From: an uncultured Candidatus Saccharibacteria bacterium
GTDB taxonomy: Bacteria; Patescibacteriota; Minisyncoccia; Phycocordibacterales; DATDWN01
Assembly: GCA_964596875.1 (NCBI GenBank)
Contig: CAZQVT010000001.1
Span: forward strand, 42,514 to 106,513
Direction of reading: 5' to 3'
DNA: 64,000 bases
The notes below the pieces were generated by a model. The model was not told the origin of the DNA. It did no database searches and saw only the letters and a list, made by a program, of their open reading frames with translations. The position numbers and the translations under genes are program-made. Numbering within the stretch: the stretch's first letter is position 1; each line of letters starts with the position of its first letter. Of the stretch, positions 28,884 through 29,760 are shown piece after piece.

Positions 28884-28956
28884 AGCACAACACTAGGCTT
28901 TTCTGCGATACATTGACATAATCCATAAATGGTTTATTGTGTTTTAGGGGGGGCGC

Positions 28957-29160
28957 ATGACAGGACGCACGGAGAGTGTTGACCTTGCAGCACGGCTGGA
29001 GCAATACGGTTTGACCGAAGAAGATGTCGCGAGACATTTCAGGATTTCGGTCGCTACCGTGCGTGCGTGGTGCGCGACGAAGCAGGTGCCGGTTGGCATC
29101 ACAAACGAAATCTGGATGATTTCGAAGGGCAATCCCACTTCGAGACAACTGGGAGGCTAG
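28957..29160 (+). CDS. small helix-turn-helix DNA-binding protein (excisionase/MerR-like HTH), high-GC island gene
   Basis: LTEEDVARHFRISVATVRAWC is a typical HTH; GC3-rich codons; 67 aa. Confidence 0.5.
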   Translation: MTGRTESVDLAARLEQYGLTEEDVARHFRISVATVRAWCATKQVPVGITNEIWMISKGNPTSRQLGG

Positions 29161-29161
29161 G

Positions 29162-29347
29162 ATGCCTGCAGACGGAGTTGATGACTGGTTGATGTACAAG
29201 GAGCAATTATGGCTCCTGTATTCCGGTGGAAAACTGCGGGTTGACCACCTGGAGACAATCGTGGAACTGGCCAAGGCCGGTCAACTCGATTCGGCACTCA
29301 GGATTTCACCCAAGGTACTCGAGGCGTCGGCCAGGGGCGTGCTCTAG
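29162..29347 (+). CDS. hypothetical protein, high-GC island gene (61 aa)
   Basis: starts 2 nt after upstream stop (translationally coupled); GC3-rich. Confidence 0.4.
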   Translation: MPADGVDDWLMYKEQLWLLYSGGKLRVDHLETIVELAKAGQLDSALRISPKVLEASARGVL

Positions 29348-29360
29348 GAGGAGCACTAGA

Positions 29361-29594
29361 ATGAAGCATGGTTTCGGTTCGGGTTTGGGTTTCGATCGCG
29401 AGGTTCGTCTCGCGAAGTTGAAGCATTTCCGGTGGCTCATGGAGACACTCACCATCGGTGCACTGCTTGGTGTGATGTCGCAGGGCGAGTCGGCGGACTC
29501 AGTACTTCGTCTTCCATTCGCAGGTGTGGCGCTGTTGTGCCACATTCTCAACAGGATCCTTGAGCACCTCGAGGGGAGACTGAGGGTCAAGTAG
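29361..29594 (+). CDS. hypothetical small protein with two hydrophobic segments, high-GC island gene (77 aa)
   Basis: AGGAGGagcactagaATG RBS; ORF track start 29226 overlaps previous gene, internal ATG 29361 has the SD. Confidence 0.45.
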   Translation: MKHGFGSGLGFDREVRLAKLKHFRWLMETLTIGALLGVMSQGESADSVLRLPFAGVALLCHILNRILEHLEGRLRVK

Positions 29595-29760
29595 CAAGTC
29601 CGGGGGCGGGGCATAACCTCCATCCGGTCGATATGTAGTCGCGCACACCTTTCGCCAGGGCGCCGCAGGTGCGGTGCCCGGCTCAAGGTCTTGCGAAGTG
29701 AAATCCGTTACTTCGCACATACGTCGAGTTTTCTCGGCGTTTTATTTTACGCAAAAATGA

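What the first reader, a model, noticed from the sequence alone, without database searches (positions are those of the whole stretch)
28940..29760. Three-gene high-GC cassette: small HTH protein plus two tightly coupled unknown ORFs (one with two hydrophobic helices) between thrS and dnaE
Seen directly: 28957..29160 encodes a 67-aa HTH (LTEEDVARHFRISVATVRAWC). 29162..29347 starts 2 nt after its stop. 29361..29594 has an AGGAGG RBS overlapping the previous stop and encodes a 77-aa protein with two hydrophobic segments (TLTIGALLGVM, LPFAGVALLCHIL). The right end carries the R2 hairpin GCGAAGTgaaatccgttACTTCGC plus AAGGTCTTGC in inverted orientation, and a T-run terminator. Inference: a regulator plus small membrane peptide in one operon is reminiscent of toxin-antitoxin or phage-derived regulatory modules, but no family can be assigned from sequence alone.
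Basis: partly seen in the sequence, partly recalled or inferred. Interest (0 to 1): 0.55.

Follow-up and report, generated by a model that had tools for sequence, protein, structure and literature searches.

The report
GC-rich orphan three-gene accessory operon
A real, conserved three-gene operon (a small DNA-binding regulator, a small soluble protein and a small probable membrane protein) sits in a recombination-prone slot between two essential genes of an uncultured Parcubacteria bacterium; its proteins have almost no relatives, its function is untested, and its lasting high GC content in an AT-rich genome is unexplained.

Summary
Window 28957-29594 carries three tightly coupled ORFs (67, 61 and 77 aa). 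They have a sigma-70-like promoter, Shine-Dalgarno sites and a terminator, and lie between thrS and dnaE of a Parcubacteria (CPR) genome. The same operon occurs at the same site in 13 further metagenome contigs, giving four allelic forms in all. dN/dS is 0.12-0.54 wherever it could be estimated, so all three are genuine protein genes.

ORF1 is an HTH protein closest to HTH_17, but it scores below Pfam's cut-off. ORF2 and ORF3 match nothing in Pfam, PHROGs, PADLOC, NCBIfam or PDB, and have no relatives away from this locus. ORF3 is a helical hairpin of borderline membrane hydrophobicity.

GC3 is 0.51-0.73 in every allele, against 0.30±0.05 for host genes, although synonymous sites in the flanks are saturated. 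Close relatives have this slot empty or filled with unrelated GC-rich cassettes for small membrane proteins. Cassette alleles are shuffled relative to the thrS type. The "R2 hairpin" belongs to a separate five-copy structured repeat, which is absent from the one other allele whose 3' UTR is held.

My best guess for function is a regulator–partner–small-membrane-protein conflict module resembling a toxin-antitoxin system. This is inferred, not shown (about 0.35).

The parts
28825..28912 (.). Conserved left frame: the first ~20 codons of thrS (minus strand) plus the AT-rich spacer up to the cassette -35 box
   Evidence: Nucleotide identity to L084 is 92% here, although the thrS body is only 45-58% identical. 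The block is conserved in all four alleles.
28913..28940 (+). Cassette promoter-like site, TTGACA-16-TATTGT
   Evidence: 10 of 12 matches. Both hexamers are conserved in the window, L001, L082 and L084.
28957..29160 (+). ORF1, 67 aa, small HTH protein with a conserved tail VPxG..E(I/L)W.I..G..SR.L
   Evidence: HTH_17 at E 2.9e-5 and 24.7 bits, below the 27-bit cut-off. The only small single-domain relatives clearly like it among 1.84 billion representatives are P0001, P0005 and P0010, all from this locus. dN/dS is 0.12-0.40.
29162..29347 (+). ORF2, 61 aa, acidic all-helical orphan protein, translationally coupled to ORF1
   Evidence: No Pfam, PHROG, PADLOC, NCBIfam or PDB hit. Four alleles are 27-49% identical with one in-frame indel. 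dN/dS is 0.31-0.54. The AF2 model has 3 helices at pLDDT 65.
29346..29351 (+). AGGAGG ribosome-binding site of ORF3, overlapping the ORF2 stop codon
   Evidence: The CTCTAGGAGG junction is conserved in L001 and L083/L084.
29361..29594 (+). ORF3, 77 aa, helical hairpin with two moderately hydrophobic helices; the most conserved of the three genes
   Evidence: Alleles are 67-83% identical. dN/dS is 0.15-0.28. Maximum KD19 is 1.51. AF2 gives helices 9-40 and 53-76 at pLDDT 73. No family, PDB, phage or plasmid hit.
29627..29721 (-). E4: one copy of a ~80-110 nt structured repeat (three helices). It lies in the cassette 3' UTR and is co-oriented with dnaE.
   Evidence: Covariance model R1 scores it at 63.6 bits, E 7e-16. 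It is absent from L083/L084, seen as a ~90-nt gap. The family structure is supported by covariation.
29721..29750 (+). Intrinsic-terminator-like hairpin plus T-run ending the cassette, 10 nt from the dnaE stop codon
   Evidence: ACGTCGAGTTTTCTCGGCGTTTTATTT is identical in L083.
27633..28883 (-). Left flank: thrS, transcribed divergently from the cassette
   Evidence: TIGR00418, 483.5 bits.
29761..32976 (-). Right flank: dnaE, convergent with the cassette
   Evidence: NF004226, 1166 bits.

Best explanation
SHOWN, with about 0.9 confidence. This is a genuine, transcription-ready, protein-coding accessory operon of a Parcubacteria/Paceibacteria (CPR) lineage. It occupies a variable slot between dnaE and thrS that is ancestrally only 24-130 bp long. 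Its alleles are shuffled by recombination relative to the flanking genes.

INFERRED, with about 0.35 confidence, is how it works. I read it as a three-component conflict or 'addiction-like' module.
- ORF1 is a winged-HTH-like regulator. It would bind the conserved promoter region and autoregulate the operon.
- ORF3 is the conserved effector. It would insert as a two-helix hairpin with both ends in the cytoplasm: basic N- and C-terminal ends, and an acidic SQGESA loop facing out. It would perturb the membrane.
- ORF2 is the fast-evolving acidic helical protein made in fixed ratio through translational coupling. It would be the cytoplasmic partner that restrains ORF3.

The high GC content is a separate, unexplained property. 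It is shared with other small accessory cassettes in this genome.
For: Signals and anatomy: the promoter, SD sites, 1-nt and overlapping junctions and the terminator are all present.

Conservation: the operon is found at the same site in L001, L082 and L083-L093, with identical gene order and junction motifs.

Selection: it is under purifying selection (dN/dS 0.12-0.54) and the only indel in ORF2 is in frame.

Conservation gradient: ORF3 is 67-83% identical between alleles, ORF1 37-73% and ORF2 27-49%. This is the pattern usual for effector, regulator and antidote.

ORF1 as regulator: HTH_17, Cro and YdaS-like weak hits.

ORF3 as membrane hairpin: two hydrophobic helices, with charges arranged according to the positive-inside rule.

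Accessory nature: the slot is empty in L006, L012 and L019 (24-132 bp). In the nearest relatives L002 and L003 it holds unrelated GC-rich cassettes for small transmembrane proteins.

Mosaicism: thrS type A pairs with alleles a and c, and thrS type B (43% identical) pairs with alleles a' and b. A breakpoint inside thrS lies between two haplotypes that are otherwise identical.
Against: There is no sequence or profile match of ORF2 or ORF3 to any toxin, antitoxin, holin or defence family. Fold searches gave only generic helical hairpins at E>1.

ORF3 hydrophobicity is below the classical transmembrane threshold (1.51 against 1.6), and each hydrophobic helix carries a charged residue.

Protein antitoxins for small membrane toxins are uncommon (from my own knowledge).

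The L002 cassette has a lone small membrane ORF with no partner. The slot is therefore not specific to toxin-antitoxin modules.

Stable residence at one site between essential genes also fits an ordinary host function. Nothing about expression, toxicity or binding was tested.
Confidence: 0.35

Rival explanations
1. It is an ordinary lineage-specific host operon. A small regulator controls a small membrane protein and its soluble partner, for example for envelope stress or for the interaction with a host cell. The module is beneficial rather than selfish, and its variability reflects relaxed constraint and local adaptation.
For: It sits at the same chromosomal site in every instance. It is under purifying selection and carries host-type promoter, SD and terminator signals. 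Flank synonymous sites are saturated too, so low protein identity alone does not require transfer. The alternative cassettes in L002 and L003 also encode small membrane proteins.
Against: It is absent from all 80 species-representative relatives. Allele and flank combinations are incongruent. GC3 lies 7-8 SD above host genes, which vertical residence does not predict.
Confidence: 0.3
2. It is a remnant or satellite of a mobile element or prophage. It would be an excisionase/Cro-like regulator plus two small accessory proteins, for example superinfection exclusion or a class-II-holin-like protein. It would have been captured between thrS and dnaE and be no longer autonomously mobile.
For: The best ORF1 hits are HTH_17 (the excisionase family), Cro, YdaS and phage repressors. 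The composition is foreign-like. Another GC-rich cassette in the window carries DUF7336/phrog_3002. ORF3 has the size and charge pattern of two-TM holins (the comparison is from my own knowledge).
Against: No integrase, att-like direct repeats, endolysin or other phage gene lies nearby. No hit was found in 50,697 phage records, 72,556 plasmid records or IMG/VR. The cassette is old at this site, since its alleles are diverged to saturation.
Confidence: 0.2
3. The GC-rich segment acts mainly as structured RNA, on the sense strand or antisense to dnaE read-through, and the ORFs are incidental.
For: The 799-nt transcript folds better than shuffles on both strands, with z -5.3 and -7.2 from 20 shuffles. 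The ORF segments have z of -0.8 to -2.9, against -0.8 to +0.4 for host genes.
Against: dN/dS is well below 1. Reading frames, start sites and SD motifs are conserved while nucleotide identity is only ~45-55%. The only indel in the coding region (ORF2, window vs L001) is in frame. There is no Rfam hit. Much of the z-score comes from E4 and the terminator.
Confidence: 0.03

Closest known systems
Three-component type II toxin-antitoxin operons with a separate regulator (paaR2-paaA2-parE2, PMC8630535; omega-epsilon-zeta, from my own knowledge)
   Same: Three short, tightly coupled genes. The first is a dedicated DNA-binding regulator and the last is the most conserved. The module is accessory and sits at a recombination-prone locus.
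   Different: There is no homology to any component. The third protein is a hydrophobic helical hairpin, not a ParE or zeta fold. Toxicity, neutralisation and autoregulation are untested.
Small two-helix membrane toxins and class II holins (GhoT of GhoST; the pinholin of phage 21), from my own knowledge
   Same: About 57-77 aa with two hydrophobic helices joined by a short polar loop. The termini are basic and the C-terminal tail is charged.
   Different: No sequence similarity. Hydrophobicity is borderline (KD19 1.51). There is no endolysin, and the partner does not resemble GhoS.
Excisionase/AlpA-type HTH_17 (PF12728) and Cro/YdaS-like small regulators
   Same: A single-domain protein of 65-67 aa with the HTH at residues ~18-40, followed by a 'wing'-like VPxG...W.I segment.
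   Different: It scores below the Pfam gathering threshold. It has a family-specific C-terminal motif. No integrase or attachment sites accompany it.
Integron gene cassettes and genomic-island hot spots
   Same: Compact, interchangeable small-gene cassettes sit at a fixed chromosomal slot, and relatives carry different contents.
   Different: Each cassette has its own promoter and terminator. There is no attC or IntI. Exchange appears to go through homologous flanks, namely the conserved thrS 5' block and dnaE.
REP/BIME-type or UTR-borne structured repeats (for the E4 element only)
   Same: A short, multi-copy, hairpin-rich intergenic element. A RAYT-like Y1 transposase gene is present in the window.
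   Different: It has three helices with conserved single-stranded motifs and a tandem-GA internal loop. It is always co-oriented with the neighbouring genes. The RAYT-like gene's own flanking hairpins have a different sequence. There is no Rfam family.

Membership tests
HTH_17 / excisionase-family HTH (PF12728), for ORF1 | Score at or above Pfam's gathering cut-off (27 bits) | tested here: not met
   24.7 bits, E 2.9e-5. Two of the four alleles hit, with best E 2.2e-5. The precomputed hit for P0001 is marked weak.
HTH_17 / excisionase-family HTH (PF12728), for ORF1 | Partnership with a site-specific recombinase and att sites | tested here: not met
   No recombinase lies in the locus or its flanks. 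No direct repeats bound the cassette.
Type II toxin-antitoxin system (three-component form) | Toxin belonging to a known toxin fold or family | tested here: not met
   ORF2 and ORF3 have no hit in Pfam, PADLOC, NCBIfam or PDB. Foldseek hits have E>1.
Type II toxin-antitoxin system (three-component form) | Compact co-translated operon with a DNA-binding component | tested here: met
   A 1-nt spacer, an overlapping stop/RBS junction and the HTH protein ORF1. All are conserved in the other alleles.
Type II toxin-antitoxin system (three-component form) | Growth arrest by the toxin and neutralisation by the antitoxin | not testable with these tools
   Needs expression experiments.
Small membrane toxins / class II holins | Two transmembrane helices with N-in/C-in topology | tested here: inconclusive
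   Maximum KD19 is 1.51, which is borderline. The AF2 model is a helical hairpin at pLDDT 73. The charge pattern fits the positive-inside rule.
Integron gene cassette | A promoterless ORF followed by attC, in an array next to intI | tested here: not met
   The cassette has its own promoter and terminator. No integrase was found. The repeat at the 3' end is not attC-like and is missing from the one other allele whose 3' UTR is held, L083/L084.
Prophage or plasmid-derived DNA | Detectable similarity to sequenced phages, plasmids or viral contigs | tested here: not met
   No match by blastn or tblastn in the phage and plasmid collections, and none in IMG/VR.
Any Rfam family (for the E4 repeat) | Match at the gathering score | tested here: not met
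   Only a tRNA was found in the whole window. A sister copy gave only chance-level hits.
REP/RAYT system (for the E4 repeat) | Repeats that match the hairpins flanking the RAYT gene | tested here: not met
   The RAYT-like gene at 48408-49031 is flanked by GTCAAAGAGTCTCTTTGAC, which occurs only twice and is unrelated to E4.

The most novel reading that the evidence does not exclude
This cassette, and the other GC3-rich small-gene cassettes in the genome, may belong to an undescribed class of interchangeable promoter-to-terminator 'slot cassettes' in CPR bacteria. Their high GC content would be actively maintained. Candidate causes are selection on the transcript, GC-biased repair at recombination hot spots, or repeated re-import from a GC-rich mobile pool. 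It would not be a fading trace of recent transfer. The three-gene unit would be a new regulator/partner/membrane-effector conflict system with no known homologues.
Probability: 0.15. Interest if true: 0.75.

Novelty: new variant of a known kind. Interest (0 to 1): 0.5.

Why it matters
CPR bacteria have tiny genomes and are thought to depend on other cells, and their accessory genes are largely uncharted.

This locus shows a compact slot between essential genes where small-protein cassettes are swapped between lineages. It also defines two protein families with essentially no relatives in about 15 billion predicted proteins.

The locus poses a clear evolutionary puzzle. GC3 stays at 0.5-0.7 in a genome whose GC3 is 0.3, over divergence that has saturated synonymous sites in the flanks.

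If the operon is a membrane-acting conflict module, it would be a new small toxin/partner pair from an uncultured phylum. If the GC content is actively maintained, that bears on how base composition is set in bacteria.

Tried and rejected
1. Fragments of one broken gene: rejected. The three-ORF layout and the junction signals are conserved in four alleles.
2. Assembly chimera: rejected. The same junctions appear in independent NCBI, JGI and Logan assemblies.
3. Recent transfer from a sequenced phage or plasmid: no DNA or protein match. IMG/VR and JGI metagenome scans found nothing more.
4. ORF3 homologous to the two-TM protein of the L003 cassette: not supported (hhalign E 0.06, BLASTP no alignment).
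5. ORF2 as a diverged HTH or a duplicate of ORF1: not supported (hhalign probability 0.3%).
6. The sharp fall in nucleotide identity at the ORF1 start as proof of transfer: withdrawn. thrS synonymous sites are themselves saturated (pS 0.70). The case for exchange rests instead on incongruent thrS-type and allele combinations and on the intra-population breakpoint.
7. The E4 hairpin as a cassette boundary or att site: rejected. It is a five-copy repeat family. One copy has no GC-rich island beside it, and the repeat is absent from the L083/L084 allele.
8. Fold searches with single-sequence AF2 models: uninformative.
9. Mutation-spectrum test within the L083-L093 population: impossible, because there are no SNPs in the cassette.

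Full report
**1. What is there**

Window 28900-29760 is a 53-60% GC segment in a genome of about 37% GC. It lies between thrS (27633-28883, minus strand; TIGR00418, 483 bits) and dnaE (29761-32976, minus strand; NF004226, 1166 bits).

On the plus strand the segment carries, in order:
- A sigma-70-like promoter, TTGACA-16-TATTGT, at 28913-28940.
- A G-rich Shine-Dalgarno site.
- ORF1, 28957-29160, 67 aa.
- ORF2, 29162-29347, 61 aa. Its ATG lies one base after the ORF1 stop.
- ORF3, 29361-29594, 77 aa. Its AGGAGG site overlaps the ORF2 stop.
- A 126-nt 3' UTR.
- A hairpin plus T-run terminator at 29721-29750, ten bases from the dnaE stop codon.

**2. The host**

ThrRS is 80-89% identical to that of Parcubacteria, Nomurabacteria and Paceibacterota metagenome-assembled genomes (MAGs). 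The order rnhB | dnaE - thrS is widely conserved in this group. In many members the spacers are only 19-60 bp (rnhB|dnaE) and 24-132 bp (dnaE|thrS). The 877-bp dnaE-thrS spacer in the window is therefore an insertion relative to the ancestral state.

**3. These are real genes**

ORF1 has exactly one relative in the 5.8-billion-protein collection (P0001, 73% identical). An HMMER search of 1.84 billion cluster representatives with its profile found only two more small single-domain relatives that clearly resemble it, P0005 and P0010. All three are encoded on short contigs that show the same locus:
- L001: thrS / promoter / ORF1 / ORF2 / ORF3, cut by the contig end.
- L082: thrS / promoter / ORF1 / ORF2, cut by the contig end.
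- L083: ORF1 (cut) / ORF2 / ORF3 / terminator / dnaE.

A profile of ORF3 then found P0043, which is encoded on ten further contigs (L084-L093). These give the whole locus: thrS / 65 aa / 59 aa / 76 aa / dnaE.

In total there are four allelic forms, from NCBI, JGI and Logan assemblies, always at this site. Gene order, SD sites and the CTCTAGGAGG junction are the same in each.

Nei-Gojobori estimates give dN/dS of 0.12-0.40 for ORF1, 0.31-0.54 for ORF2 and 0.15-0.28 for ORF3. The one indel in ORF2 is in frame. The idea that these are fragments of one gene is refuted. A purely non-coding role is very unlikely.

**4. What the proteins are**

*ORF1.* This is a single HTH domain. Its best Pfam hit is HTH_17 at 24.7 bits, below the 27-bit cut-off. 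Two of the four alleles hit that family. Weak PDB and NCBIfam hits are to Cro, PbsX-type and similar small regulators. The four alleles share a tail motif, VPxG..E(I/L)W.I..G..SR.L.

*ORF2.* It is acidic. A low-confidence model predicts three helices (pLDDT 65). It hits nothing in Pfam, PHROGs, PADLOC, NCBIfam or PDB sequences. A suspected HTH-like stretch is not supported.

*ORF3.* It is predicted as a helical hairpin, with helices 9-40 and 53-76 (pLDDT 73). It has two moderately hydrophobic stretches, basic ends and an acidic connecting loop, SQGESA. That charge pattern suits an N-in/C-in two-helix membrane hairpin. However, its maximum Kyte-Doolittle 19-residue mean is 1.51, just under the usual threshold. 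It has no relatives away from this locus and no family hit. Fold searches returned only generic hairpins at E>1.

**5. Composition**

The 49 host genes in the window have GC3 of 0.297±0.048, with a maximum of 0.41. The three ORFs have 0.62, 0.66 and 0.68, which is 7-8 SD higher. In the other three alleles GC3 is 0.51-0.73, while their flanks have 0.22-0.33.

Synonymous sites in the flanks are saturated or nearly so. For thrS, window against L082, pS is 0.70. For dnaE, window against L083, dS is about 1.1. Over that time a neutrally evolving insert should have drifted to the host composition. That expectation is my inference, not a tool result.

The cassette mRNA segments fold slightly better than shuffles, with z of -0.8 to -2.9, against -0.8 to +0.4 for host genes. 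This is weak evidence. I leave the GC persistence unexplained.

**6. A variable slot with mosaic flanks**

None of the 80 species-representative relatives carries the three genes.

The closest relatives, L002 and L003 (ThrRS 86-87% identical), have different GC-rich cassettes at the same place and in the same orientation. Each has an AT-rich promoter, an SD site and a terminator. Each encodes one or two small, clearly hydrophobic proteins (KD19 2.1-2.6). L006, L012 and L019 have an essentially empty site.

Cassette alleles do not track the flanks:
- Window and L082 share 98% identical ThrRS, but ORF1 is 38% and ORF2 27% identical.
- L001 and L084/L091 carry a different ThrRS, only 43% identical to the window's over 307 aa. 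It is still thrS (TIGR00418, 342 bits on the partial protein). Yet L001 has the cassette allele closest to the window's (ORF1 73%, ORF3 83%).
- The L083/L084-type allele has DnaE 94% identical to the window's over the C-terminal 97 aa of L083.

Sliding identity between the window and L084 runs as follows:

| Region | Nucleotide identity |
|---|---|
| thrS body | 45-58% |
| First ~20 thrS codons | 92% |
| Promoter | 68% |
| ORF1-ORF2 | 43-58% |
| ORF3 | 72-80% |
| dnaE | 80-95% |

Within one population, two haplotypes differ at 27 sites confined to the interior of thrS. They are identical from the thrS 5' end through the cassette into dnaE. Recombination around this locus is therefore frequent. 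Published work also reports abundant gene exchange among Patescibacteria, mostly within the phylum and including translation genes (PMC12455944).

**7. The 'R2 hairpin'**

The motif at 29627-29721, read on the minus strand, is one of five copies in the window. The others are at 7905-7983, 33429-33530, 43543-43643 and 60178-60278, all on the plus strand. Further copies occur in L005 and L080.

The element has three helices:
- P1: GAGAAGnn...nnCUUCGC.
- P2: ACCUU...AAGGU, enclosing a helix of variable length tipped by tandem GA pairs.
- P3: a hairpin with loop CUGUAAG.

Conserved linkers (AAG after P1, GUGUAC before P3) join the helices. Across seven copies 96.7% of cells pair, against 81% in shuffles and 32-47% in slid controls. 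Eleven of 19 pairs show compensatory changes. One caveat applies: the alignment was fitted to the model.

All seven copies are co-oriented with the neighbouring genes. No Rfam family matches. The L083/L084 allele lacks this element in its 3' UTR, and one window copy has no GC-rich island next to it. It is therefore an independent element that landed in this cassette, not a cassette end.

**8. How it most likely works**

The following points are established:
- An autonomous promoter-to-terminator unit.
- Stoichiometric coupling of three small proteins.
- An HTH protein as the first gene.
- A conservation gradient of ORF3 > ORF1 > ORF2.
- Accessory distribution, with allele shuffling at a hot spot.

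From these I infer a regulator / partner / small-membrane-effector module of the toxin-antitoxin or exclusion type (about 0.35). Rivals are an ordinary host operon for a regulated small membrane protein (0.30), a remnant of a mobile element (0.20) and an RNA-level function (0.03). The balance is left to possibilities I have not thought of.

No defining feature of any TA, holin, integron or prophage family was met beyond the operon architecture. I do not file the cassette under any of them.

**9. Verdict**

The feature is real and conserved. It encodes two orphan protein families plus an HTH protein. Function is unproven. The unusual aspects are the long-lasting GC anomaly and the cassette-slot behaviour with mosaic flanks. 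I score interest at 0.5 and rate novelty as a new variant of a known kind, namely a small HTH-led accessory or conflict operon.

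Noticed in passing
window 7905-7983(+), 33429-33530(+), 43543-43643(+), 29627-29721(-), 60178-60278(+); L005 2285-2393(-); L080 8747-8830(-): A structured repeat of ~80-110 nt that is not in Rfam. It has three helices, a tandem-GA internal loop and the conserved motifs GCAAG, GUGUAC and CUGUAAG. It is always co-oriented with the adjacent genes, and 11 of 19 pairs show compensatory changes. Four of the five window copies abut GC-rich islands.
   Followed up: partly
window 33384-33414 and 33566-33600; L005 about 2410-2380 and 2253-2220 (minus strand): Just upstream of the repeat copy that precedes rnhB lies a short duplicate of the rnhB 5' end (MKYIAGIDEV; MKQIVGIEV in L005). 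The real start (MKNRYVAGIDEV) follows the repeat. The arrangement is conserved in two lineages. It could be an upstream ORF, or an insertion that duplicated its target.
   Followed up: partly
window 6937-7854, 33035-33343, 43668-44479 (minus-strand ORFs), 47337-48415: Four more GC-rich islands with ORF GC3 of 0.55-0.91. Those inspected have a consensus-like AT-rich promoter, and three have a clear terminator hairpin. They encode small proteins: one DUF7336/phrog_3002 member, a 59-aa and a 127-aa protein behind a palindromic promoter region, and a 289-aa secreted protein at GC3 0.91.
   Followed up: partly
window 48408-49031(-), with hairpins at 48407-48425 and 49043-49061: A Y1 (IS200-like / REP-associated tyrosine transposase-like) gene, scoring 63 bits against a cut-off of 80. 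It is flanked by two identical hairpins, GTCAAAGAGTCTCTTTGAC, and lies directly beside the 47337-48415 GC-rich island.
   Followed up: partly
L084 3-419, L091 3-950, L001 1-189, compared with window 27633-28883: Strains with 94% identical DnaE (C-terminal region) carry a thrS only 43% identical to the window's, which looks like a xenologous replacement. The first ~20 codons and the upstream 20-odd bases stay about 92% identical at the nucleotide level. Two co-occurring haplotypes differ only inside thrS.
   Followed up: partly
L002 about 5579-6001 and L003 about 3936-4660 (dnaE-thrS spacer, read on the minus strand): Alternative GC-rich cassettes occupy the same slot. They share a family of small membrane proteins starting MPHG(I/M)..., and L003 has an extra two-TM ORF and a long GC-rich hairpin. 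The 297-bp spacer in L005 looks like a structured RNA rather than an ORF.
   Followed up: no
L002 about 1966-2379 (rnhB-dnaE spacer): A second slot behaves the same way. The rnhB|dnaE spacer is 19-60 bp in many relatives. It is 403 bp at 47% GC in L002 (locus 37%) and 589 bp at 44% GC in the window.
   Followed up: no
L084 position 1491: A single-base insertion relative to nine sister contigs splits dnaE into two called genes. It is probably an assembly or sequencing error.
   Followed up: yes
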